NCBI RefSeq assembly: GCF_009914755.1
Contig: NC_060934.1
Strand: one strand, 5' to 3'
From: the human T2T-CHM13v2.0 reference genome, Homo sapiens
Length of the DNA stretch: 64,000 nt
Under the pieces are notes generated by a model. That model was not told where the DNA came from and made no database searches. It worked only from the letters and a program-made list of their open reading frames with translations. This document shows positions 8,101-32,949 of the stretch, piece by piece (the first letter of the stretch is position 1; each line of letters begins with the position of its first letter). A program made the translations under genes and the position numbers.

Positions 8101-9808
8101 TGCACTAGTCATGGGTTCTCAAATACTCAATCTGTAGCCACATAGTGGGAGTCCTGATGACCAAGATTTTGTCCAGCTGAAAAACAGGATGGGAAACTCA
8201 GAAGACACTCTTGCCCTTCCAGTGTGCCTCTGTTGCTTGCCTGGTTCCAAGCCACATGTTAATAACACCCATATGGGTTTCATTTCCTCCAGAGCTTGCC
8301 CAAGTAAGCCTCCAAAGCAACCTGGCTTGCCATCCTCTGCCTCCTCCTGCCAGCCCCTAACCCCTGCTCACAGGTGGAGTTGACCCATTCAAACTGGAGA
8401 CACCCTGGGCTGTGCAATTAGGCTGGAGAAGACAGACCCCATTTCAAAAGGTGACTCCCTACCATTTTGAAATAGGACTTCATTAATTGCATTCCCCTAT
8501 TGATTCATTACCATGAAACAGCCTGGAGTGCTTGCCTGTAGCCTAACCTTTCTCAACAGAGGGAGCCAGACGTTCTTTGCAGGTAATCTACAGGGCCCAA
8601 CAGCAAATATCTGGAATCGGGACTATTCATGCATGAACAATATAGCAGCTCCTTATTGTTACACGCATTGTTCTCTGACAAAGAGCAACGGGCAGGTTAA
8701 ATCTATTTTAGCTGAGAAGGCTCTACAGAAATCCTTGCTACCGAGCATTTGATACTGATCACAGAGTCACATCAGGGAACAGCAGCTGAAAGGAGAAAGT
8801 CATTTTTATTTCTGAACTTTAGAGGAGACAACCTCTCCTCCGCGCTGGCTCCCCAGGACCTAGGCCTCTAGGTGGGAGTGAGGATTTTGTTTTGTTTTGT
8901 TTTTTAATGCCACTCAATGAGAATGCGTTTCTTAAGGGAATCGGGGGCTGGACGGTTAGGGGGAAAAAGGTATTACACAATGTCGCATTCAGGCAACATA
9001 TGTGAACTCTGGATTCATTCAATTTTAAAAACGTGTTCTCAGGGGAATCAAGTCTGTGAGCTGTGAATTATAACGAAGGGCGTGGCAGCCTCAGGGTTGG
9101 TGGTGCCTAAATGGTACCATTTGGAACAGCAGAAAAACAGGAACTTGATTCTGCCTTGGATTTGCCTCTGCTCAGCCGGGCAGTGGAAATGCCACTTGCT
9201 CAATTCACCCTCCTTCTCCAAAGAGTGAGCCCATTGAGACTGAGACTTCTGTAAGGCCCAACATGCATGAGGGCTGGGAAGAGATGGGCAGGGTGAGATA
9301 TGGATGGAAGAAAAATTATTTAATCCAATCCTTATATTACAGCAGCAGAGACAGGACCAGGGCGAGGGTGTGCCTTGCCCTTCTAGTGAGTGCTGAGATT
9401 AGAAGCCAACCCACAACTATTCATCCTCCATGGTAATTTTCAGTAAGAAGCATGGTGTTGAACTGGGCCAGGAGGATGGCAACAATTTAGCTCGGGGGCT
9501 GGTGGGAAGGACAGTATATCCAAATCATTTAACAACCAGTCCAGGGTGGGCACCACTAGATCGGGCAAAGGCATCAAGCAAGCATAATGGACACTAACCA
9601 CAAATGCCATTTGTGCCCCCAAGTGGGTCCTGATGCTGACTCTCAGGCCTCTCTAGACCTCAGTGAAACCATCATGGAACAGCCCTGGGATAGAGCCATG
9701 TGAAGGAAGGAGCAGCTGACAGTCACCCAGTCACTGACTGATGTGTCAGGAAAGTAGGTGATTCCATTAGTTGGTTGAAATTGTTTATTCTACAAATATC
9801 TAGAAAGG

Positions 9809-10339
9809 TGCATGAAATAAACAAAGACCAACCAAGTGAGGGAAGCAAAGCCTATTTATTCAGAGCTTGCTATAGCAAGGGAGTCAGCCACCACCCTTTG
9901 CAAAGACTCAAGGGCAGGCCAGGGGAGTGGGAAAGCTTTATAGAGAGAAAAGGGAAGCCTCAGGTGTGTGCAGATTTGAGGCTGTTGGTTTTGGGGAGCT
10001 GTGTGTGGGATAACTAGAAAGGGGGCATCCTATCTGATTGGTTGGGGTGCATATTTGGCTTTCTCTGGTTGGTCCTTAAGTTGGAAGTGGAGACAAAAAT
10101 TAGGGAAGTGTCAGTTATTAATCAAGTCCCATCTATTTGAGGCAGATTGTTACAGGGGTTGCTGTTTAGCTTCCTGGATTGTCACTAGAGAGAGCAAACT
10201 GGCTTCCCATAAATCCGACTTACAGCAGACTGGCTTCCTGGGTTGTTTGTTGTAGATAGGAGGTTGCTGCAGGTTGTGGGTCAAAGTTCTATTTTTATAC
10301 ATGGTCTGAACATTTTCTGTTTGTATATTCAGTCTCTTA
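9809..10339 (-). mobile_element. ERV1-class solo LTR (MER67-like)
   Basis: Minus strand begins taagagactgaatatacaaac...ataaaaatagaactttgacccacaacctgcagcaacc and ends ...gactcccttgctatagcaagctctgAATAAAtagg...tttatttcatgca. Confidence 0.65.
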
Positions 10340-11279
10340 GTCCCCGGATTGTCTCTAGCTTGGTTCAATTATTTCTCCCCCACCATTCTTCTCCTTGGGA
10401 AAAATAAAAATCATTATGTATATAGATTCACTCTGAGGTACCTTCTTCATAACCACAACCCACTTCTCCAGGATTTCAGCCTGAGTGTTTCCAAATGAAA
10501 AGTTTCTCTGAAACTTAAAGTTGAAACTGGCTGCTTTGTTAGCCATCCAAGGCAAGAGATATACTGGGGGTCTCACATCTGCCTTCCTTCTTCTGCCCCA
10601 GCTTTCCACACAACCAAGCAGGATCCCAGTCAAGTCCAGGGCAATATCATGTTGCTTTTGGCTAAGTGCTGCACTTCCATGGTCTAGGCTCTGATGCTAG
10701 ATGCTGGCACTCCCACTCTGTGATAACATGTGCATGTTTAGTTCTGTACAATTTTATCACGTGTGTAGGTCCTGTATCTACCACCACACTCAAGACACAA
10801 AACAAACAAGCAAAACAACAACAAGATACAAAACAATTCCCTCCCACAAAGGTAAAGATTCCTACTCTTGCCCTTTTATAGCTACCCTCACCTCCCTCTC
10901 ACCCCCACCTCACCTCCTATCCCAGACCTCTGGCAACCTCTAATCTGTTCTCCATGTCTATAACTTTGTCATTTCAAGAATGTTATGCAAGTGAATTCAT
11001 GTAATATGTAACCTTTGGGATTGGCTTTTTTCACTTGGTGTAATTCTCTAGAGATTCATCCAGGTTGTTTTGTGTAGCAACAGTTCCTTTTCTTAGGTGA
11101 GTAGCACACCATGGTATGGATGGACCACGGTTTGTTTAACCATTCACCCACTGAAGGGTATCTGGGTTGCTTCTAGGTTTGGGGTGTTCTAAATAAAGCT
11201 ACTATGATCATTCATGCACAGTTTTCTCTGTGAACACAAGTTTTCGTTTCTGTGGAGTAAATGCCCCAGAGCATAATAG

Positions 11280-11613
<334 letters not shown>

Positions 11614-11661
11614 ACATGGTTAGTTTTATAAGAAACTGCCAAATAGTTTTCCAGAGTAGAC

Positions 11662-11721
11662 ATTCCCACCAGCAATGAATGAATGATCCAGATTCCCACC
11701 AGCAATGAATGAATGATCCAG
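11662..11721. repeat. Perfect 30-bp tandem duplication
   Basis: (attcccaccagcaatgaatgaatgatccag)x2. Confidence 0.95.
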
Positions 11722-13739
11722 TTCCCCACATCCTCTCCAGCATTTAGTATTGTCCCCACTTTTAATTTTAGCCATTCTGGTAAATGTTAGTGATTTCTCA
11801 TTGTGATTTAATTTGCATTCTTCTAATGGTTAAAGATATTGAACATTTTTTCATGTGTTTGTTTGCCATCTGTATATCCTCTTTGCTGAAACGTCTATTT
11901 CTTTTGTCCATTTTCTACTTAGATTGTATGGTTTATTTTTTGTTGGGATTTGAGAGTTCTTTTCAAAAAATATACTCTAGATACCAATCCTTTTCAGATA
12001 TGTGTTTTGGGCATATTTTCTTTTAAATTTGTTTTTAAAGGCTTTCATAGGTTTGCTTGTACCTCTGCTACAAACTCTGTTTTTCTAAGATCTTAAATTC
12101 TTCAACCATAAATTTTTCAGCCATAAGCATTTTGGGGAAGGTAATGTGTGAGTTGGAGAAAGACCATCACCTATCCACACAAAAAGCCAACCTGTAAATA
12201 GTGGCTGAGTCAAATGAGCAGGCAATGTGCCTCATCTTTCTTAAGCTGCAACATCAGCACCAGCTGTTTTAATGGACTCTTTGAAAAATGAGGTTTTTTT
12301 CCCTTCCCAAAAACACACTGGCATGCAATTCAATTCATTCACTGCTCATTTAAACAGGCTAGATACATTCTTGCCATGTCCAAGAAAGTCTATATATCCC
12401 AACTCTCCCAGCTATCACCATCCCAGGATACAAACTTGGTCATGATTACTTTTAAGGGCAACATTAGAAAGCACAAGACCTCATTATCTTGACTGCTGGA
12501 AACGAGCCCCTCTTAAAGAAATTACCATGCGATTATGCAAGCCCCTGAAGAATCCTTGCATGTTTGGTATTACTCCATGCCCATGCATTCGTGAAATGTA
12601 TCCCAAGTGCCAGATGCTGTACTAGGTGATTGAATCTAATGGCAGACACAGCTGGCAGGACCCCTACACTCATGGAGCAGATAATCCAGTGGCCACAGTC
12701 CAGTTTGTCAGCTGTGATCCTCAAGCCCTCTTTCTTCTCTCTTCTGGTTTCCACTTATTCATACCTCAAAAATGCTCTTGAAGAAACCTTACAGTGGCCA
12801 CATGAGAATAAATAGTCTTGTCCAGTCCAAGGGTTCTGACACCAGATGTGCCCACAGTTCCCAATCCTCAGATGCTAGGACGTCTCTGGGTTCTGTGCAG
12901 CGGTGTGGGAAGGTTCCCTCCCCATCAAGGTGTAGTACATGGTCATCTGTGCTCAGATGTGGCCCTGCTTGTGCCCACAGCCTCACAGAGCCCGAGATCC
13001 TGTGCTCTCTCACACTTTGTCTTGAAAACTCATGTATTTATGGACCTTGCTGCTCTAATCATGGAAAGTTAAAACTCTTACAGGAAGGCTGCCAGACTGG
13101 ATCAGACACTGTACTCTCCTTCCATCTTCCTCTTTCCGTTGAAACAATAGCCCATTATACTTAGAAACCTAGTTTTTAGAAACCCGAGTAAAGTCCAGTT
13201 GCTTCTAGTAATGTCCAACTGAATCAAAAAACAGTAGGCAGAAAAGGTGATTGAATATTTTTGGAAAGGTGTTTAAAGTTTGGGTGGACGGGGTTGAACA
13301 GGAAAGGTGCAAAATTGTCTTTAGTCCAAGGAAGGCACAAAAATGAAAAGATTAAAAATAAAAGGGGGTCTCCCATGACAAAGACGGACTTTGTAAGGAA
13401 AAATGAGAATTAGGCAAGGTGCAAGGTAGGAAAAGACCAACAAGCATTTATGGAGCGTTCTTAAAGATCACCCTCCACCTCGAGATGGCAGGTTTAGCCA
13501 CATTCTCCCAGTGAGTAAGGGCGTTGTCACTGTAATTTAGACCATACAAATGATGTCAACTTGAAAGCCCTCCGGAAACTTCTCTGCAGGTTTTATCTAA
13601 TATGTTTTTACCTAATTCGTTTCCTATAAAGGCTACAGATATATTGTGTTTGCCTTCTAAGGTTGTTGAGAACTAGAACAAGTGTGACAATTGGAGAAAG
13701 TACAGTCAGGAAAAGCCGATCTCTTTCACGGAAGGGACT

Positions 13740-13830
13740 CTGTTTCATTCCTCTTTATCTCCCCATTACTTTTCAGTTTGACACAAATTAGGTACTCATA
13801 AATGTTCTTTGAATGAACAAATTAACTTGC
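13740..13830 (+). mobile_element. L2 3' end
   Basis: tgacacaaattaggtactcataaatgttctttgaatgaac. Confidence 0.65.
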
Positions 13831-13884
13831 TTGTTTCAGGTCATAAAGTGAGTCATTGCCTGGGACAGCTTTCCTCTACTATGT

Positions 13885-14135
13885 TCCCAGATACAACAGA
13901 GAGTTACAAGTATTTGAGGCAAATAGGAGTCTGTGATCAAATGAGATTTGGTCTTAGGGAGCCACAGTGCACGTTAACATAATAAAGGCTCCAAGAAGTC
14001 CTGCAATAAAAAGCCCATGTAACTTTTTCTAACTCTGCACTTCTGAAAACTTTTTCTGACCATGGAACCCCTTTATTTCATAGAACAAAAGCTTCAGCAT
14101 CTTGCAGAACCAGTGTTCCTCAGAACACGTTCAGG
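13885..14135. mobile_element. hAT-Charlie-type DNA transposon relic
   Basis: ataaaggctccaagaagtcctgcaataaaaagcccatgtaact...tgaccatggaacccc...agaaccagtgttcctcagaacac. Confidence 0.6.
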
Positions 14136-14139
14136 AGCT

Positions 14140-14545
14140 TGAGTTAATGAGGCAAAGAAGAATGGCAGAGAGCTCAGCAAAAACAAAAGGAGAGAGAGAT
14201 GTTTCCTGGGATACATGGGAGTGATAACTGCAGGCACTTTGGTAGTGCCAGAACACAACCTATCAAGTGGGAAGGGATGAACAAAGAGGTTTGAGAGTGT
14301 GTGATGGGGCTATTCCTGCAGAGCACACTGGCCTGCCATGCCATGGAGCTTAGGTTTAACCAACTAGACCCTTTGGAGTCCTGGCTCTCTGCACAGTGCC
14401 GTAGAATGATGGGGTCACATTTGAGGTCTAGGCAGGCTGTTCTGGTGGTTGGGTGGAGAGTGGGTTAGAAGAGGACATACAGGATGACCAATTAGGTGGT
14501 TGCCTTGGTGTTTGGGTAGAAGATGGACTCTGATCAGCAGGCAGT
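14140..14545 (-). mobile_element. L2 fragment
   Basis: gccatggagcttaggttt...ggtcacatttgagg...tctggtggttgggtggagagtgggttaga...gaccaattaggtggttg. Confidence 0.6.
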
Positions 14546-14711
14546 GCATGGTTTCTCTTACATCTTAAATTTCTCATAGCATGATTTCTCTTACATCTAC
14601 AGCGTAAAACAATCGTGATTGATATTACGTGTCAAATAAATTTCCAATAAAATTTTCATTGTAATCTCAGCACCCAATTTACTGATCTATTTTGGGAATG
14701 CTTCTACATTA

Positions 14712-15302
14712 CACAGGATGCTTTTAGGTCTAAGAGACAGAAACTCAACTCAAACTTGTATACACACCAAAAGAAATATATTAACTCACATAATTGGGAA
14801 AGTCCATATAGTCAGACTTAGAAGATGTCACCGGGAATCTCTGTCCTACCTTCTCTTCTGCCTGCTTTCCTCTGGGCTGGCTTCAGTCTCAGGTGGCTCT
14901 CCCCATGTGGGGGCAACTTGGCCACCAGCACTTCCAGGCTGAGGGGCAAACAGTTTAGCTGCCTCCACAGAAAGTACATTGTCCACCAGTTCCAGCAAAA
15001 CCTCAGGATTGATTTTCTCTGGGTCTGGCTGAAGATACATACCCACCTCTGAAACAATCACTTCTCCAGGGTGTGAAGTCCATGTATGGATCTTCCCTGG
15101 GCTTCACACCCTGGAGGAGTGACTGTTTCAGAGGATGGGTGTCACATGCCCATCCCCAGAGATGGTGAATGGAGTTGGACTAATTCAGACCAGAAAACGG
15201 AGAGTAAGGAAGGGGTGGCCCCCAAAGGAAAACTCAGGATGCTATTATGAGAAGAGGTGGGAATGGATGCTGGGCCGGCAGAAACATCAGATGTCCACTA
15301 CA
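14712..15302 (-). mobile_element. MLT1K-like MaLR solo LTR containing a long inverted repeat
   Basis: gacagaaactcaactcaaact...ccccaaaggaaaactcaggatgctatta...ggaatggatgctgggc...gatgtccactaca. Confidence 0.75.
15039..15142 (+). repeat. Long inverted repeat / hairpin (37-nt arms, 34/37 complementary, 15-nt loop)
   Basis: 15046-15082 cctctgaaacaatcacttctccagggtgtgaagtcca pairs with 15098-15134 tgggcttcacaccctggaggagtgactgtttcagagg; stem extends to 15039/15142 with one bulge. Confidence 0.95.
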
Positions 15303-16049
15303 AGTTACCGAACATGTCTTGAGGGGAAAATAAGTTAGCTGTTTGAGTCATACTTGATACCCCATTGACCCAAACCCTCCAACCTCAAATATTCTGGCAA
15401 TATATTTTTTTCTTTATTAGAGAACCACTTCAACCAATGCTCTGCCAGGATGTCCTAAAAACCAAGGTGGCAAGAAGAGCGCAGCAGCACCTTGCATGCG
15501 GAGCTGAGCTGAGACCCCACCTTCTTCAGCTCAGCAGGGTTGGTGGATGTTACTGTTGTCCTGCTTGAGTAGAGAAAGCTCTTTGGAGACATTAGTATTT
15601 CCCTCTCCTGTGACCTAAAAAGGGCCTTCCCTCAGGGGTCTCACTGGGGTTAACTTCACCCCTGATTGGCTTGAGACAATGAGACCTTCCTCAAGCTCAG
15701 ATGAGCTGGGAACAGTGCTGGAATGGGGTCCAAGCCCTCAGGGACCCCCTGTCCCACAGATTAGCAATCCACCCACCCAAGTCAGCTCACCTAGGGGAAG
15801 TTGAGCATGGGCTGGTCAGAAGCAAACAGCATCATAAAAGCTGGTAGAATAGCCATTTCATAGTTTTCTAGCATCCTAGTTTGTTCACACACGGAGCTGA
15901 CAGATGGCCCATTTGGACTGAATTGGGCATTGGCCCAATTCAACAAACATTTACGTGCCTTTTTTTTTTTTTTTTTTTTTTTTGGCTTGGGGACAAGCTA
16001 AGTAGTAACATTCTAGTCGATTTCATCAAACCAGTTAACACAGCTTTGT

Positions 16050-16262
16050 GCTGTGAGGAGACTTCAGGCTTTGGAGTCAGACTGACCTGGGTTTAAGCCC
16101 AGTTCCATCACATATTTGCTGTGTGGCCTTTGGCCTTCATTTCCTCATCTGTAAAATGGGGATGCTAATACAAGGGCCTCTGTCTCAGGGCTGCCATGAG
16201 GTTTACACGAGGTGACGTATATCAGGACCCATAGCCCCACCATAGAAGACACTCAGCCAAGG
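16050..16262 (+). mobile_element. MIR SINE
   Basis: ggctttggagtcagactgacctgggttt...tttcctcatctgtaaaatggggatgctaata. Confidence 0.9.
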
Positions 16263-16599
16263 CAGTGGCCTCCTTTCCTTCCTCCCTCAGCTGACTCTCT
16301 GCTGACTTGACTCACCAGATGGTTGGACAAGTCCTTTTCCTGCTATATCGAGATGGGCACTGACTGTATCTTGAATGGTCTTAGATAGCATCTGATAGCA
16401 CTGATACTCAGTTGAGTTAACTCTCTGAACAACTCCTTCGGGTAGTAGAAAGAGGAAGGAGTTATTAGATGAAAATTGGCCATCATTTAGCCAAACACAC
16501 ATCTTGAAAGGCAGCCTGGGGCTTTAATTATGACTCCAAATGCGGGTTCAAGCCTGTATATTTAGCTTTGATCATTGTGGCATCTAGATCCAATAATCA

Positions 16600-16745
16600 T
16601 AGCAGACACCAGGTACTCAGCTAAATACTTAACACTGTTTCCATACTTCATTAATGCCCACCACAGTCCTGTGGTGATACCGATAATATTATTCCTTTTT
16701 ACAGATGAGGACGTGAGACTCTGAGAGGTTAAGTCAAGGCTGCCA
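16600..16745 (-). mobile_element. MIR SINE
   Basis: attccttttttacagatgaggacgtgagactctgagaggttaagtcaagg-like core. Confidence 0.8.
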
Positions 16746-16984
16746 CATCAGTTGCATCCGTAGTCCATGTGACTAGTACCCCCGGCACTGTGGGTGCATA
16801 ACAGTAACGAAAATAGCAGGCAGCACTCATTTGGAATCCGCAATATGCCACACATTCTCACATGTATTAATTCTTTAATCCTCTTGCAAAACTCAGAGAC
16901 CACACACCAAGGTCAACAGCTAATAAGTGACGAATCTTTTAGAGTCTCCTCCATAACACCCTACACTTTTCCTACATAGCACTT

Positions 16985-17238
16985 TAAAAGAAAATAATTT
17001 CAACTTTTATTTTAGACTCAGGAGGTACATGTGCAGGTTTTTTACATGGGTATTTTGCACGATGCTGAGGTGTGGGGTACGATTGATCCCATTACCCAGG
17101 TAATGAGGATAGTACCCAGTAGTTACTTTTTCAGCCCTTGGTCCCTTCCGTCCCTGCTCCTCTAGTCCCCAGTGTCTATTATTGTCATCTTTACATCCAG
17201 GGGTACTCAATGTTTAGCTCCCACTTATAAGTGAGAAC
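16985..17238 (-). mobile_element. 5'-truncated L1 (L1PA15/16-L1PB-like 3' end) with TSD
   Basis: ttcaacttttattttagactcaggaggtacatgtgcagg...ctcccacttataagtgagaac; TSD cctacayagcactt at 16971-16984 and 17239-17252. Confidence 0.9.
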
Positions 17239-17279
17239 CCTACACAGCACTTCTTGATTAATCTTGATTAATTCTACCC

Positions 17280-17404
17280 CCTCCCATTAGATGCAAGCTC
17301 CCTGACAGCAGAATAGTCATTCTTGTGTCCCCAGGACCTGGCAGAACACTAGGCTCATAGAAGGTGCTGAATAAATCTTTATTGAAAAACGAATGAATGA
17401 ATGA
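17280..17404 (+). mobile_element. L2 3' end
   Basis: attagatgcaagctccctgacagcag...aggtgctgaataaat...gaatgaatgaatga. Confidence 0.8.
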
Positions 17405-17951
17405 GGTGTGTAAGTCAGATACCAGGAAGAGTTTTCACGGCAAAAAAAAAAAAAAAAAAAGCTGTCCTTTATTTCACACCAAATAATGATGGGAGCATAT
17501 GTGCGGGGTGGCAGTGGGGTGGGAGCCTGAATGCTGGCATTGGTGCCCGGCCATGCCCCATCGATGAAGTCCTCTGGGACACACAGACTGAGGCTGGCAG
17601 GGACGAACTTTCTAAAGCACCACAAAGTTCCTTGGCCCCCACACAACGTCTGGCCCCAAAGCCTTAATTTCTCAGATAAACAAAGACAATCCAGCCCAAC
17701 TTCCAACCTGGCCACCGGCCAACAGGCACTTGGGTTCAAGACTGATTTTGTTGAAACAGCTGAATGTGCACCAGGCAGACCCGGCCCTTCTGCTCTGGAT
17801 CCCTTCTCTCTGTCTCTGGCTGAAGACGAGAGCATCCTGGGGTCGGGACTCTTAATCCTCCTAACCTAAGGGAGGATGTGCGCCTGACACAGGGCCAAGG
17901 CCCCCCGACACCCTGATGCGCGGCCCCGGGCCCATCTGGAATGTTCAGAAA

Positions 17952-17970
17952 TGCTGCCATCTTGTGGCGC
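17952..17970 (-). promoter_or_regulatory. CTCF motif in a small CpG-rich patch
   Basis: Minus strand GCGCCACAAGATGGCAGCA closely fits the CTCF core CCASYAGRKGGCRS (one mismatch); ~10 CpGs in 17821-18000. Confidence 0.65.
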
Positions 17971-18299
17971 CTGCAGGCCGGAGCAAGGCACCTTCCGGCT
18001 GATCTTGAAGTTGATTCCTAGAAGATGTTGCTCCAAATAAGCACACACAGACTGTGTGCATTTGCATTGCCACATGCTAAGCCGCCTATACCACCCACTC
18101 ACTGCTACCCCAGGTGTGTTATCTGCTTTGGGCCAGCCTGAGGTAAAACTGTCAACACTGAAAATCATTACCTTTGGCACCTCCCAGCTCTCCGGAAGTT
18201 ATCTGGTCTGTAGACAACAAGTCCCTGAGGGAAGTGGGTGGGGCACAGGGCAGGTAAGTTTTGACAGAAAAGGAAACTGGGCACAAAGTCTAAGGTGCT

Positions 18300-18300
<1 letters not shown>

Positions 18301-18345
<45 letters not shown>
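18301..18345. repeat. (CAA)15 microsatellite
   Basis: Perfect trinucleotide run. Confidence 0.98.
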
Positions 18346-18449
18346 AAAGATGGGCCCTACAGGAGCCTGCTGAGCACAGAGTTACTGAGTTGAGCTGTTG
18401 GAATCACAGTGGTAAGGGGCCCTCCCTGCTGGTGCAACAAGACACAACA

Positions 18450-18690
18450 GAGTGTAGTTATTGTGCACTTGGACCCTCGGGTTAGATAACCTGAGTTTGA
18501 GTCCCCATTCCACCACTTGGTAGCTTTGTGACCCTGGTGAAGTTGCTTAACCTCTCTGTGCCTCCATGTTTTCAACTATAGAATGAGGGAAATAAGTTGT
18601 AATTACCACAAAGGATAGTTTTAAGGATTCAGTGATATTTGTAAAATATTTATATAGTGTTGGTGCATTATAATTGTTAAATAAAAATTA
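18450..18690 (+). mobile_element. MIR SINE
   Basis: acctgagtttgagtcccc...gcttaacctctctgtgcctcc...atagaatgagg...aaggattcagtga. Confidence 0.85.
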
Positions 18691-18932
18691 AATCAAATGT
18701 TGTGTAGATTTGGAAGCAGGATTAATTTATCCCGTACCTATTTTATTCAGCACCCTTGCCCAGTGCTAGGTGTCAGAGGTGCAGAAATGGAGTTCCAATT
18801 GTGGCATATATACAGTTACTAGGGAGCAGAGGTGAAGGCAGGCTGAGGTTTAAGCAACTACCTTATTATTCCCCAGCTGTGAAGCCCTGGCAAATGTCCG
18901 TTCCCCATCCTGAGTCTGTTTCCCCATCTTTG

Positions 18933-19529
18933 TGTTACTGGTGGAGGATGTCCAGGTTCTTGTTGTTTTGAACAAAGAATTGGACAAAATGCACAAACGA
19001 AAGAATGAAGCACCAAAGCAGATTTATTCAAAGGAAAGTACACTCCACAGAGTGTACTCTACAGAGTGGGAGCGGGCTTCAGCAAGTGGCTCAAGAGTGC
19101 TGGTTACAGAACTTTCTGGGGTTTTAATACCCTCTAGAGGATTCTCATTGGCTACTTGATTTACACCCTGTGTAAATGAAGTGGTGGCCCGTGACCAGTC
19201 TGATTGGTCATGGAAGGTGAAGTTACATCCAACGCAAATGAAATTACAAAGTTACATCCTATGCAAATGTCTGATTGATTGTGGGAGGGGACCAGAGACT
19301 GAAGTGAAGTTACAAAGTTTCACCTGTATGCAAATGAAGACTAGGCCCGCAACAGGACTTTCCATTTTTTCATCTATGACATAGAAAGCAGGGAGTGCAA
19401 AGGGAGTAGCCTCTGATCGTTTTGTTACTTGAACATGGAAAGTTGGGGTTTTCCTTTCAATTCAGTTCCAGGAAGTCAGTGCAAATCAGCCTTAGGTTCC
19501 CTGCCCCCACACCCCATTCTCCTGTCTCA
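18933..19529 (-). mobile_element. MER51-family ERV1 solo LTR, inserted into a MIR
   Basis: tgttactggtggaggatgtccaggttc...ccttaggttccctgcc...attctcctgtctca; 4-bp TSD TTTG at 18929-18932 and 19530-19533; flanks rejoin as MIR core tttccccatctttg|aaatgagg. Confidence 0.9.
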
Positions 19530-19556
19530 TTTGAAATGAGGGTATTGGACTATGAC

Positions 19557-19650
19557 AGTGTTTCTTCATCCTGGCTCCTCATTCAAATCACCTAGGGGGC
19601 TTTTAAAAACTATCAACACTGGGCCTTACACTTTCCCACTCTGACACTGA
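19557..19650. mobile_element. MER5-type hAT fragment
   Basis: cagtgtttcttcatcctggctcctcattcaaatcacctagggggcttttaaaaa. Confidence 0.65.
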
Positions 19651-19654
19651 TAAT

Positions 19655-19960
19655 ATTTAGTCAACAAATATTATGTGAGAATCCAGGCTGGGAACAGTTT
19701 CTGCTAGGCACTGGGCTCCCTCTGGGGTAGAGTTAGAGGATGTCATCCTGTCCTTGAAATAGTCTCAGCCCATGGAGAAGTGCAAGTATGCAGGCAACTT
19801 ACTGAACACAAGTGGAGACTGAGGCATGTCATGAAAGAAATCTATACCAGGACTCAGAAGGGAAGGCAGAGGCAAGAGATGGCTCTTCCACCTTGGAGGT
19901 GGGGTTGAAACTGTTGCAGGTAGCACCTGAGTTAGCCAGAAAAAAATAAGGGCAGAGGGG
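19655..19960 (-). mobile_element. L2 fragment
   Basis: atttagtcaacaaatatt...tgctaggcactggg...catcctgtccttgaaatagtctcag. Confidence 0.55.
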
Positions 19961-20542
19961 ACAGTTTCTCCCAAGACTTCCTAGCCCATCCACATGAGAA
20001 AATCAAATTGAGCCTTTATTACCACACATTTTTAATAAAGGAAAGAGATAGATAACAAAGAAGGAAGTAGAAACTCGCACAGTCTGCCATCCCAGCATCC
20101 ATCCTGGGTCCCAAGGCAGGGTGCTCTTCTGGTCGAGGGGTTCAGTCCCAGGAGGGTTACAGCAGATGCTGGATGCGGTATTAGTGACCTCTCCCGGACC
20201 ACAGTCCCATGCCTGCTGGGACCCTATTTCTCCAAAGCAAAAAGCCAAAGGACTGAAAGTGCACAGGTCACTTCTGCCCACAATCATTGGTGAGAACTAA
20301 CTAAACACAGCCAGCTCCTGGCACACCAGTTAAGCAAGCGGCCTCTGCAGCTCAGCACATACTTGGGACATATGCTTCCCGCTTATAGCTCTTGCAGTTC
20401 AACAACACAATTCATGCTTCCTCTTTCCCCATCTCCCAGGTGAGAACATCACAAATAGAACTTTCAAGAATGCAGTCTATGGGGATGAGGAAAGGCTTTG
20501 TAGAGGAGGTAGCGTGAAGGGTGGTGGGGCCCAAAGGACCAA

Positions 20543-20920
20543 TGTATAGGCTGTATGCTGTTTGCCGAATTTCTCAGCTCTTTGCCATCCATGCTAGGCT
20601 TGTATTTCCTTTGTTGTCCCTGTGTAGCCTTGTGGTTAGTTCTGACCAATGCGTGTGGGCAGACGTGACCTGTGTCACTTTTGGGCCAGAGCACTAGACC
20701 CTCCAAAGCCCTCTCATTCTCTCTGATACAGTGACTATATTGTTTGAAATGATAGCTGCTCTGCCACTCTAGGCCCCTCCGTGATTACGATGAACAGAAC
20801 CCCCTGCCAACCATGATGAACTTGGAGGATGGGCAAAGAGATAAATCATGTTATTTTAAGTCACTGTGTTTGGGGGCTGTTTGTTACTATAGCATAGCTT
20901 AGCCCATTCTGACTGATACA
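20543..20920 (+). mobile_element. MLT1 (I/J-like) MaLR solo LTR
   Basis: tagttctgaccaatgcgtgtgggcagacgtgacctgtgtcac...gtttgttactatagcatagcttagcccattctgactgataca. Confidence 0.8.
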
Positions 20921-21914
20921 ATGGTCATGATTTAGATGAATGACTGGCTATCAGAGAAGAAGATGTGATTTTGAACCAGTCACGTTTCTTCTCTGGTCTT
21001 CACTTTTCTCTTGACATGGTGACATCGTCCTGGAAGGCTGAGCCTACACTCAGAAAGGAGGGAAAAGAAAGAGTCGCATGCAACTTTTATACAATAGGTC
21101 CACATAGACCTCTGTGTGTCTTTTCACACTAACCTGAGGAAATGGAAGAGCAGGTGAACTTTCCACTTGTTGAGGTTGGAGAAGGATGACTCCTCTGCGT
21201 TCCTGGTTTCCCACTTCATCCCCACCCCACTACGCTTTCATGCCTGGCACCAATTGTACATGTTCAAGCAATAGTTTCCATCTCCGGATGTTCATCAGAA
21301 AGGTGGGTAGAGCTATTTTTATTTCACCTTTTTACAAACTAAAAATTTATTTACACATTTTAAGACAAATTCTGGGCTCTGCCACAGTCTGAGTTTAGAT
21401 TCACTCAAGAGTCCATAGTCTACAATGACAGCCTTGTACAGAGAAAACTGACACTTACCACAATGGCCCTGCATTGGGGTAAAGTCCTAAAATGTCTTCA
21501 GAAAATGAAAGAAAGATACAATTGTATGTGAAATATCTTTAGTGATTGAAGGAATCTTAGAAATCATCTAGTTCAACACTTTCAGGTTACAAATGAGAAG
21601 AAATGAAACCCAGAAAGAGAAAGGAAATGACTTACTTCCTCAGAGTGCTTGGGAGGTAGGTCCTCTGTCTTCTGGGACAGAGGGAAGAGGCTTGCCAGGT
21701 GCCCACTGACTCAGGTCCAGGACAGTGGCACACGTTTGTATGTTGTTGTTAAACTGACTTTACCAGTCCCCATGGGCTGGCGAGGCTTAGAGCGTTTTGG
21801 GTGATAAAACAGGAATACGTCCCCGTTTTATTGATTAAGGCACCAAAGCTCACAGAGAGTTCAATGCCACGGCCAAAGTGTTAGGGCTAATCAAAGGCAG
21901 AGCTGGGGCCAGGC

Positions 21915-31587: not shown

Positions 31588-32551
31588 TCAATAAACATAG
31601 TTCATCTTAGGATAAAGTAGAAATCTCATATGATTATCTCAGTAGATATAGAAAAGGCATTTGATAAAATTTAATACTCATTCATGATAATGAATATCAA
31701 CAGACTAGAAATAGGAACTTTTTAAAAGTGATAAAGTTCTTCTACGAAGAAACCTACCGCTAACATCATATTAATAGTGAGAGATTAAAACTTCTTCCTT
31801 AAGATTGAAAACAAACGAAGGTAAACATCTCTCACCATGTCTGTTCAGTACTGTAATGGTGGTCCTAGGCAGTGCAATAAGACAAGAAATGTTTAAAATA
31901 AGAGGCCTACAGATTGGAAAGGAAGCAGTGAGACTGTTTGGAAATGACATAATTATATAAAAAATCCTGAGAATTCTCTAAACGAGCAACTGAAATTAAT
32001 GTACCAATTTAACAATATTTTGTAATACAAGGTCAATATACAGTAATGAATTGTATTTCCACATACTACCAAAGAAAAATTAGAAAATAAAATTCTAGAA
32101 AAGGCAATTCTAATCTATAGTGACAGAAAGTAAATCGGGGATTCCTTGGGTGCGTGGAAGGAATAGAATTGACTACAAAGGGGCATAAGGGTATATTTTG
32201 GGGTGATGGAAATGTTCTGTATTTTTATTGTAGTGGTGATCATGTAGGTATATATGTTTATCAAAACTCATTAAATCCTACAATTAAAATGAGTATATCT
32301 TACTTTTTATAAATTTTTGTTTTGATAAAGATGATGTTCAAAAAAGTAAAAAAAAAAAAAAAGGGAGAGTTTCCACTATATTAGCAATAACCTACTAGAA
32401 AAATATAATAGAACTCAAGTTATAATTCCTAATAGCCCACCCCCATCCCCACCTCAGGAGTATCTAGAAATTAACCTAAAAATATACAAGATCTTTACAG
32501 AGAAAAATCCGGATAAAATAAGACCTAAATAAGTAGAACCCCAGTACATGG

Positions 32552-32949
<398 letters not shown>

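What the first reader, a model, noticed from the sequence alone, without database searches (positions are those of the whole stretch)
15039..15142. De novo pre-miRNA-like hairpin inside an ancient MLT1 LTR
Seen: 37-nt arms (15046-15082 and 15098-15134) are 34/37 complementary. On the + strand two of the three differences are G-U wobbles. The stem extends to ~44 bp with one bulge, and the 15-nt loop starts with UGU. Established: Microprocessor prefers a ~35-bp stem with a loop of 10 nt or more, and an apical UGU enhances processing. Inference: the left arm follows the recalled MLT1K consensus, while the right arm looks like a much younger inverted copy, the signature of replication template switching. 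This would be a lineage-specific hairpin that could yield a miRNA or form a cruciform. No well-placed CNNC motif is visible, and I do not recognise it as a named miRNA.
Basis: partly seen in the sequence, partly recalled or inferred. Interest (0 to 1): 0.75.

Follow-up and report, generated by a model that had tools for sequence, protein, structure and literature searches.

The report
Young inverted duplication in old LTR
About 40 bases of a very old retrovirus-like LTR were copied backwards next to themselves, most likely by a slip of DNA replication, which made a strong hairpin that looks like a microRNA precursor but shows no sign of being a gene.

Summary
The hairpin is real. Arms 15046-15082 and 15098-15134 are 34/37 complementary with a 15-nt loop. 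The RNA folds at -81.4 (+) and -76.0 (-) kcal/mol, z about -9.9 and -9.3.

It lies in a solo LTR, about 14705-15303, of an old dispersed family. I recall the family as MLT1/MaLR. No tool could name it, and subfamily K is untested.

About 40 nt (15102-15141) have no counterpart in other copies. Only the window has it among 26 motif-pair matches, and none of the 4 closest copies does. This block mirrors the window's own already-diverged left arm: 8 of 9 private states. Its only near match in the genome is that arm.

This fits a replication template switch, a published mechanism (PMC10710096). Three substitutions since the event give 17-38 My (95% range 4-112), against roughly 90-100 My for the LTR.

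There is no evidence for a miRNA: no Rfam hit at gathering, no RefSeq gene, an intergenic site, and no well-placed CNNC. The published base rate is 0.9%. This is an ordinary new member of a known kind.

The parts
14705..15303 (+). Solo LTR of an old dispersed family (MLT1-type MaLR by my recall; subfamily untested). It is 599 nt including the inverted block.
   Evidence: Nine other loci match its ends at 73-85%. Similarity among copies begins at about 14705 and stops at ...CCACTACA, 15303 (many alignments end at 15300-15303). No second copy lies in 9000-21000.
15040..15078 (+). Template of the inverted copy. It makes up most of the left arm and is family-derived sequence carrying this copy's private substitutions.
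   Evidence: Aligns to 24 family copies. 17 of 32 scored columns are family-like, 9 private and 6 ambiguous.
15046..15082 (+). Left arm as reported by the repeat finder.
15083..15097 (+). 15-nt loop. It is family-derived sequence, not new.
   Evidence: Aligned to letters in the family copies. 20 of 24 rows have >=9 of 12 letters in 15090-15101.
15098..15101 (+). TGGG already present in family copies just before TCAYRTGCCCA. It is the likely microhomology (TGG against CCA 15080-15082) at the first switch.
   Evidence: for example L014, L015, L026 and L035 read ...CTGGGTCA....
15102..15141 (+). Inverted block of about 40 nt, the reverse complement of 15040-15078. It is absent from the other copies of the family.
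   Evidence: 0 letters in these columns in 23 of 24 aligned rows (L036 has 26 unrelated letters; L022 is uninformative). 91% identity to the left arm over 42 nt. The 33-mer 15102-15134 with <=3 mismatches occurs in the genome only here and, reversed, at the left arm.
15098..15134 (+). Right arm as reported by the repeat finder.
15142..15152 (+). Resumption of family sequence (TCACATGCCCA) directly after the block.

Best explanation
An old solo LTR sits at about 14705-15303. I recall the family as MLT1-type ERVL-MaLR. Long after it inserted, it suffered one complex mutation. During DNA synthesis the growing strand left its template just after ...CCCTGGG (15101). It paired through TGG with CCA of the sequence made shortly before (15080-15082), either by folding back on itself or by jumping to the opposite strand. 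It then copied about 39 nt backwards (15078 down to about 15040) and returned to the original template at TCACATGCCCA (15142). The net result is a 40-nt inverted duplication (15102-15141) and, in one step, a stem of about 42 rungs with a 15-nt loop.

Since then the two arms have drifted by 3 substitutions and 1 single-base indel. The hairpin is most likely a neutral mutational footprint. It would fold if transcribed, and could fold in single-stranded DNA at replication, but nothing indicates that it is transcribed or processed.

What is shown: the repeat, its absence from the paralogous copies examined, and its descent from this copy's own left arm. What is inferred: the template-switch mechanism, the switch points, the date, and the lack of function.
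For: 1. Family spacing. Motif-pair searches of the whole genome found 23 matches with 25-55 nt between CAATCAC and GTCAYRTGCCCA (0 control). With 56-86 nt there were 3 matches (0 control): the window itself, one copy with an unrelated extra block (L036), and one unrelated locus. So 1 of 26 carries the inverted block.
2. Looser pattern. It gave 89 short-spacing matches (control 20) and 42 long-spacing matches (control 5). Of the 30 long ones that came with loci, only the window has an inverted repeat longer than 11 nt.
3. Alignment. The window has 40 columns (15102-15141) with no letters in 23 of 24 rows.
4. Fold of the homologous stretch: -78.9 kcal/mol in the window against -10.6 to -31.3 in 24 copies.
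5. The four closest LTR copies, chosen without regard to spacing (L004, L008, L009, L010), have no inverted repeat longer than 10 bp in the homologous interval.
6. Descent from the local left arm. Within the template there are 9 private columns (window base in <=27% of copies, another base in >=55%), and 8 of them are mirrored in the block. All 6 ambiguous columns are mirrored too.
7. Genome-wide, the block's only match within 3 mismatches is the left arm. The left arm's only match at E<=10 is the right arm.
8. Mechanism in print. PMC10710096 (abstract, all of Results, and passages of the introduction and Methods read) describes template-switch mutations that create whole hairpins in one event. 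It reports 53,666 putative events and 6,054 miRNA-sized hairpins in genic regions on the human lineage since the primate ancestor. Its criteria are an inverted fragment >=15 nt and a new stem of 30-55 bases. Both are met here.
9. No function seen.
Against: - The empty orthologous site could not be examined, because no primate genome is reachable. Absence of the block before the event is inferred from paralogous copies only.
- The copies are a mix of subfamilies found by a motif. Some 'private' states may be subfamily states rather than substitutions after insertion.
- The genome search counts are lower bounds, and closed regions are not shown.
- The junctions are not clean. The first switch needs a terminal G opposite T (15101/15079) or a later substitution. 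At the return, base 15141 and the bulged A at 15135 are not explained by simple copying of today's left flank.
- The relative date is about the last tenth of the element's residence: 0.038 against about 0.25-0.30 per site (ratio worked by hand). That is somewhat younger than the date from absolute rates.
- The sequence cannot distinguish an intrastrand from an interstrand switch, or replication from fold-back repair of a break.
Confidence: 0.82

Rival explanations
1. The hairpin is an unannotated lineage-specific miRNA or hairpin-siRNA precursor. On this reading it is transcribed from the residual LTR promoter or from nearby enhancer activity and is cut by Drosha/Dicer or by Dicer alone.
For: The stem (about 42 rungs) and the loop (15 nt, starting UGU) lie within the 30-55 base range used for miRNA-like TSM hairpins. 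PMC10710096 (Results read) attributes 18 MirGeneDB and 111 miRBase human miRNA loci to template switching. It notes that 8 of 12 intergenic ones lie within 1 kb of a TE promoter. MLT1-derived miRNAs exist in print: miR-558 in MLT1C and miR-3927 in MLT1H2 (table passages of PMC10671384). Enhancer features are annotated 2.2 kb away, at 17307-18075.
Against: No Rfam family reaches its gathering score; the best is 38.4 bits against a cut-off of 200, from a generic long-hairpin model. No RefSeq gene overlaps the site. The nearest transcript is 30 kb away and the nearest MIR gene 327 kb away. The stem exceeds the ~35 bp optimum, and CNNC occurs only at 15151 and 15154. The wobble pattern equals chance (P = 0.5). 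The base rate is low: only 57 of 6,054 (0.9%) suitable TSM hairpins in genic regions are annotated miRNAs, and 99 of 111 TSM miRNAs are intragenic. No expression data could be consulted.
Confidence: 0.03
2. The palindrome is ancestral. On this reading it belongs to the founding sequence of this LTR subfamily, or to a palindromic MITE, and other copies have lost it.
For: The family does carry a short inherited inverted motif: CAATCA upstream and TGATTGG downstream in many copies. Sensitivity to very old copies is limited, and the subfamily could not be named.
Against: 0 of 25 other motif-pair matches carry it, 0 of the 4 closest copies, and 0 of 29 other long-spacing loci. The arms differ by only 3 of 37 positions, while significant alignments between copies show K2P 0.28-0.57. 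No other place in the genome matches either arm. The inherited short motif now lies in the loop and is not part of the new stem.
Confidence: 0.03
3. The inverted duplication is much older than the arm divergence suggests. On this reading the arms have been kept alike by repeated arm-to-arm correction, that is, quasi-palindrome perfecting by further template switches or by short-tract conversion.
For: Template switching was first proposed precisely for converting quasi-palindromes into perfect ones (PMC10710096 introduction). The abstract of PMC13100816, seen only in the listing, says that switching between imperfect arms can homogenise and expand them. Correction would also produce mirrored private states.
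Against: It needs at least two events where one suffices. The arms are only 37-42 nt long. The three remaining differences and the bulge show no recent correction. No orthologue data exist either way.
Confidence: 0.08
4. The repeat is a chance match or an assembly artefact.
For: None found.
Against: About 4e-6 such repeats are expected by chance in the whole genome. Fold z-scores are about -9 to -10. The arms carry three substitutions and an indel, which a fresh chimeric artefact would not.
Confidence: 0.01

Closest known systems
Template-switch mutation (TSM) hairpins of the primate lineage (Monttinen, Frilander and Loytynoja, PNAS 2023; PMC10710096)
   Same: A nearby stretch is copied in inverted orientation in a single event, which creates a near-perfect stem from sequence that had none. 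The fragment is >=15 nt and the stem lies in the 30-55 base range. Substitutions accumulate after the event.
   Different: This locus is intergenic and has no annotated miRNA. It lies inside a transposable element. The authors' genome-wide scan covered genic regions, and their polymorphism set excluded repeats.
MLT1-derived miRNAs in print: miR-558 (MLT1C/C2), miR-3927 (MLT1H2), mml-miR-7198 (MLT1J1) (PMC10671384, table passages)
   Same: A hairpin lying inside an ERVL-MaLR LTR.
   Different: Those are annotated and expressed miRNAs. Their flanking LTR fragments show no significant similarity to this LTR, and this hairpin matches none of their Rfam families.
Palindromic MITE-derived miRNA precursors (MADE1 / mir-548 type; recalled, no call; MIR548E is merely listed 2.5 Mb away)
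   Same: A TE-borne long, near-perfect hairpin.
   Different: In MITEs the palindrome is the element's own terminal inverted repeats and is present in every copy. Here only one copy of the family has it.
Quasi-palindrome correction and inverted-repeat expansion by template switching (references 16 and 17 as described in PMC10710096; PMC13100816, abstract in the listing only)
   Same: A polymerase switch between complementary stretches, using short microhomology.
   Different: Here no pre-existing long quasi-palindrome is seen at the homologous place in other copies: the best inverted repeat there is <=10 bp.

Membership tests
MLT1 (ERVL-MaLR) LTR | Dispersed, diverged copies throughout the genome | tested here: met
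   Nine loci on 5 chromosomes match the ends at 73-85%. 23 motif-pair matches against 0 control, and 89 against 20 control with the looser pattern.
MLT1 (ERVL-MaLR) LTR | Match to a named MLT1 (K) reference | tested here: inconclusive
   No repeat library is among the tools. Five print-anchored MLT1 loci (at MIR558 and MIR3927, upstream of PPCS and NT5C1B, and at DDX10 exon 1) gave no significant LTR-to-LTR match. Scores stayed at or below shuffle maxima, and the only hits were Alu to Alu. Two of the fetched stretches were cut to 10 kb. The family name rests on my recall of the LTR's terminal and central motifs. Subfamily K is untested.
MLT1 (ERVL-MaLR) LTR | LTR termini TG...CA and a short target-site duplication | tested here: inconclusive
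   The 3' end is ...CCACTACA, shared by 7 of 8 compared copies up to the end. The 5' end reads TA in the window and TG in L006. The flanking 5-mers GCTTC and AGTTA do not match, as may be expected after long decay.
MLT1 (ERVL-MaLR) LTR | Age before the eutherian radiation | tested here: inconclusive
   The 11 significant local alignments of >=100 nt have K2P 0.28-0.57, median 0.39 (median taken by hand). That is about 0.2 per lineage, or roughly 90 My at 2.2e-9 per site per year (rate recalled). Print: MLT1 members other than A1 and C2 are widespread in eutherians and absent from opossum (PMC10735291 passages). Two MLT1 copies are dated >=90 and >=98 My (PMC3836709 passages). The orthologue of this copy was not examined.
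Template-switch mutation | Inverted fragment >=15 nt identical or nearly so to adjacent sequence on the other strand | tested here: met
   About 40 nt at 91% over 42 nt.
Template-switch mutation | Parent sequence lacks the fragment and has no equally long hairpin | tested here: inconclusive
   Met by proxy only. Paralogous copies lack the block and the hairpin.
Template-switch mutation | New stem of 30-55 bases with the loop central to the event | tested here: met
   41 pairs plus one mismatch rung; loop 15083-15097 lies between the template and the copy. Criteria from PMC10710096 Methods passage.
Canonical miRNA gene | Annotated or matching a described miRNA family | tested here: not met
   None of the 9 Rfam matches at E<=10 reaches its gathering score. 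No RefSeq MIR gene lies within 326 kb. miRBase and MirGeneDB themselves are not among the tools.
Canonical miRNA gene | Transcription of the hairpin | not testable with these tools
   No RefSeq transcript overlaps. No expression data are available.
Canonical miRNA gene | Discrete ~22-nt products with 2-nt 3' overhangs, dependent on Drosha and Dicer | not testable with these tools
   No small-RNA data, and the supplements of papers are closed.
Canonical miRNA gene | Microprocessor-friendly geometry and motifs (~35-bp stem, loop >=10 nt, apical UGU, CNNC 16-18 nt past the cut) | tested here: inconclusive
   Loop of 15 nt and UGU are met. The stem is about 42 rungs, longer than the optimum. CNNC occurs only at 15151 and 15154, too far downstream. 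The stem and loop preference is quoted in PMC10710096. The CNNC placement is recalled.

The most novel reading that the evidence does not exclude
The hairpin may be an unannotated primate-lineage miRNA or endo-siRNA precursor. On this reading it was born in one step by a template switch inside a roughly 100-My-old MaLR LTR in the TCF7L2-HABP2 gene desert, and it is expressed from LTR or enhancer-associated transcription in some tissue that has not yet been sampled deeply.
Probability: 0.03. Interest if true: 0.45.

Novelty: new member of a known kind. Interest (0 to 1): 0.2.

Why it matters
The locus is a clean textbook example of how one replication error turns unstructured DNA into a complete hairpin. 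The donor arm, the copy, the microhomology and the drift after the event are all readable. It also shows that such events can be recognised inside old repeats by comparing paralogous copies. That is a class of sites which the published polymorphism scan left out. By itself it changes nothing: thousands of such hairpins exist, and fewer than 1% are known to become miRNA genes.

Tried and rejected
1. Known RNA family. An Rfam E-value scan of 13500-16700 found only generic long-hairpin miRNA models far below their cut-offs.

2. Close paralogues of the hairpin. DNA searches of the whole reference used 211 nt, 82 nt at E<=10 and a 33-mer with <=3 mismatches. All returned only the locus itself and its own other arm.

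3. Naming the LTR from print. I fetched MLT1 copies that papers name by gene context: MIR558 and MIR3927, and the regions upstream of PPCS and NT5C1B and at DDX10 exon 1. I compared them with the two LTR pieces kept apart and with the family copies. Nothing was significant except Alu-to-Alu hits from the flanks of L004, L009, L011, L026, L031, L032 and L035. The name therefore stays a recollection. A 15-mer from the LTR's 3' end is in no searchable paper.

4. A second LTR or an internal region nearby: no direct repeat of the LTR in 9000-21000.

5. Selection for structure. 2 of 3 differences are wobbles on the + strand, which is P = 0.5. Rejected as evidence.

6. Correction of a count. Note 2 holds a hand count of 14 private columns, 13 of them mirrored. 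The scripted count replaces it: 11 private columns of 36, with 10 mirrored.

7. Not done. I built no profile or covariance model of the copies, because a profile carries a consensus. I made no search of papers by arm sequence. I made no primate, population or expression look-ups, because no tool offers them. PMC10710096 has no mention of chr10, MLT1, MaLR or ERVL in its main text, and its supplements were closed.

Full report
**Observation.**

The repeat finder reports arms 15046-15082 and 15098-15134, 37 nt each, 92% complementary, 15 nt apart. In the whole 64-kb window only one other inverted pair of >=22 nt within 120 nt is listed, a weak 71% AT-rich one.

As RNA, 15025-15155 folds at -81.4 kcal/mol on the + strand (z -9.92) and -76.0 on the - strand (z -9.32). 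None of 200 dinucleotide-preserving shuffles does as well. As DNA the fold is -43.5 kcal/mol (z -9.15).

Parsing the + fold gives 41 pairs between 15041-15082 and 15098-15140. It also gives an A.C mismatch at 15057/15123, a bulged A at 15135, one more pair (15036:15141) and 5 outer pairs. Two of the three arm differences are U.G on the + strand, the loop starts with UGU, and the only downstream CNNC motifs are at 15151 and 15154. A repeat this good is expected about 4e-6 times in a genome of this size.

**The element around it.**

A 631-nt query found nine other loci on five chromosomes that match the two ends of the stretch at 73-85% identity. Alignment of copies shows that similarity begins at about 14705 and ends at ...CCACTACA, 15303. 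Many pairwise alignments stop at 15300-15303. No second copy lies within 9000-21000, so this is a solo LTR of a dispersed old family.

I recall its central and terminal motifs as those of MLT1 LTRs of the ERVL-MaLR group. That is memory, not a test, because the tools hold no repeat library. I tried to anchor the name in print by fetching MLT1 copies that papers identify by gene context:
- MIR558 in MLT1C and MIR3927 in MLT1H2 (PMC10671384 table passages).
- MLT1B upstream of PPCS, MLT1E1A upstream of NT5C1B and MLT1D at DDX10 exon 1 (PMC3836709 passages).

None gave a significant LTR-to-LTR match. The only hits were Alu to Alu. The subfamily (K) is therefore untested. RefSeq's masked-repeat list does not flag the stretch.

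**Age of the LTR.**

Eleven local alignments have >=100 aligned bases and score above the shuffle maximum. Their Kimura distances run from 0.28 to 0.57, with a median of 0.39 (median taken by hand). Local alignment keeps the best-preserved parts, so this is a low estimate. Halved, it gives about 0.2 per lineage. At a recalled mammalian neutral rate of 2.2e-9 per site per year, that is roughly 90 My.

Print agrees for the family I recall. MLT1 members other than A1 and C2 are widespread in eutherians and absent from opossum (PMC10735291, passages). Two MLT1 copies are dated to >=90 and >=98 My by synteny (PMC3836709, passages).

**The right arm is an addition peculiar to this copy.**

Two short motifs flank the region in the family.
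- A genome-wide pattern with 25-55 nt between them gave 23 matches against 0 for the reversed control.
- The same pattern with 56-86 nt gave 3 matches against 0: the window itself (78 nt between the motifs), one family copy with an unrelated extra block (L036), and one unrelated locus.
- A looser pattern gave 89 short-spacing matches (control 20) and 42 long-spacing matches (control 5). The long ones are mostly Alu-like. Of the 30 that came with loci, only the window has an inverted repeat longer than 11 nt. The other 12 could not be folded.

In a MAFFT alignment of the window with 24 copies, window columns 15102-15141 hold no letters in 23 rows. L036 holds 26 letters there, and L022 is uninformative. 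Copies such as L014, L015, L026 and L035 run straight from ...CTGGG into TCAYRTGCCCA, where the window has the block in between.

The homologous stretch folds at -10.6 to -31.3 kcal/mol in the 24 copies, against -78.9 in the window. The four closest LTR copies from the DNA search were chosen without regard to spacing. Their best inverted repeat in the homologous interval is 5-10 bp.

**The block was copied from this locus's own left arm.**

I scored 32 columns of the template (15040-15078), leaving out 7 columns fixed by the search pattern.
- In 9 columns the window carries a base held by at most 27% of copies while another base holds at least 55%. 8 of these 9 private states are mirrored in the block.
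- All 6 ambiguous columns are mirrored, and 16 of the 17 family-like columns are.
- The one unmirrored private column does not point to the family's commonest base either.

In the whole reference, the 33-mer 15102-15134 has, within 3 mismatches, only itself and the left arm reversed, at 2 mismatches. The left arm has only itself and the right arm, at 91% over 42 nt.

A caveat applies. The copies are a motif-selected mix of subfamilies, so some 'private' states may be subfamily states.

**Mechanism.**

The pattern is that of a template-switch mutation as described in PMC10710096 (abstract, Results, and passages of the introduction and Methods read). After a stall, the nascent strand folds back or jumps to the other strand. 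It is extended briefly on the wrong template and then returns, creating a reverse-complement repeat in one event.

Here TGGG (15098-15101) is inherited sequence. TGG is complementary to CCA at 15080-15082, which offers microhomology for the first switch. The copy runs from opposite 15078 to about opposite 15040, and family sequence resumes at 15142.

The junctions are not perfectly clean. G at 15101 faces T at 15079. Base 15141 and the bulged A at 15135 are not simple copies of today's left flank. Later substitutions or a single-base indel in either arm can account for these, but that is inference. The sequence does not tell an intrastrand from an interstrand switch, or replication from fold-back repair.

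**Date of the event.**

Template and copy differ by 3 substitutions and 1 indel over 39 positions. That is 0.038 per site per lineage. It corresponds to 17 My at 2.2e-9 and 38 My at 1.0e-9 per site per year, with a Poisson 95% range of 4-112 My (rates recalled).

Relative to the 8 or more mirrored private states per 32 columns that were acquired before the event, the event falls in roughly the last tenth of the element's residence (ratio by hand). 'Lineage-specific' is likely but not shown. Repeated arm-to-arm correction could make an older duplication look young, and I give that 0.08.

**Function.**

Nothing points to a gene.
- The Rfam scan of 13500-16700 listed 9 matches at E<=10. None is near its gathering score; the best is 38.4 bits against 200.
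- The site is intergenic. TCF7L2 ends 284 kb upstream and HABP2 starts 99 kb downstream. The nearest annotated transcript, LOC107984270, is 30 kb away, and the nearest MIR gene is 327 kb away.
- The nearest annotated functional elements are enhancer features at 17307-18075.
- The stem is longer than the ~35 bp preferred by Microprocessor (preference quoted in PMC10710096), and CNNC is badly placed.
- Two wobbles of three differences on one strand is the chance expectation for transitions (P = 0.5).

The published base rate is low. Only 57 of 6,054 miRNA-sized TSM hairpins in genic regions are annotated miRNAs, and 99 of 111 TSM-derived miRNA loci are intragenic.

A cruciform in duplex DNA seems unlikely with a 15-nt spacer (recalled knowledge). 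A hairpin in single-stranded DNA at replication is possible.

**What I could not see.**

I could not see expression or small-RNA data, primate orthologues, human variation, miRBase or MirGeneDB themselves, or the supplements of PMC10710096, which may list TSM loci. The main text of that paper mentions neither chr10 nor MLT1, MaLR or ERVL.

**Verdict.**

The origin story (old LTR arm plus a younger inverted copy made by template switching) is supported, by paralogue comparison rather than by orthologues. The miRNA reading has no support, and the MLT1K label is unverified. This is a new member of a known kind and of low general interest.

Noticed in passing
window 11662-11721: Two perfectly identical 30-nt units stand head to tail (family D3). 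They lie inside the only RefSeq masked repeat near the finding (11301-11747). This looks like a very recent tandem duplication.
   Followed up: no
L036 (= L050), G000:C3:55692608-55692696: Another copy of the same LTR family has 26 extra letters at the very junction where the window has its inverted block. It has no inverted repeat. By eye the extra letters look like a direct repeat of the preceding stretch. The junction may be prone to replication slips.
   Followed up: partly
L028 and L030 (rows): In these copies a further CCAATCAC- or CCCATCAC-type unit follows directly after GTCATGTGCCCA. In most rows a GGTCAYRTGC-like stretch also precedes CAATCAC. So the family seems to carry a tandem unit of roughly 60 nt in variable number. 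The template switch happened at the start of the second unit.
   Followed up: no
G000:C9:136174622-136174680 (-) and G000:C9:136191261-136191319 (+): Two identical 59-nt matches of the family motif pair lie in opposite orientation 16.6 kb apart. This suggests a recent inverted segmental duplication on chromosome 9.
   Followed up: no
window 14705-15303: The old LTR is not in RefSeq's masked-repeat list for this chromosome, so that masking misses repeats of this age.
   Followed up: no
window 17307-18075: Annotated enhancer features lie 2.2 kb downstream of the hairpin: an H3K4me1 hESC enhancer and a K562 activating tiled region with a CTCF state.
   Followed up: no
window 18300-18360 and 32513-32577: A (CAA)n microsatellite (family D1) and a weak AT-rich inverted repeat, 28-nt arms at 71%.
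   Followed up: no
window 15050-15062 and 15120-15131: The left arm covers the stretch of MaLR LTRs that I recall as holding the DUX4-type double-homeobox motif. PMC3836709 says that most bound MaLR reference sequences hold one but prints no motif letters in its main text. The block would have made a second, inverted, diverged copy of it. This is recollection only and was not tested.
   Followed up: no
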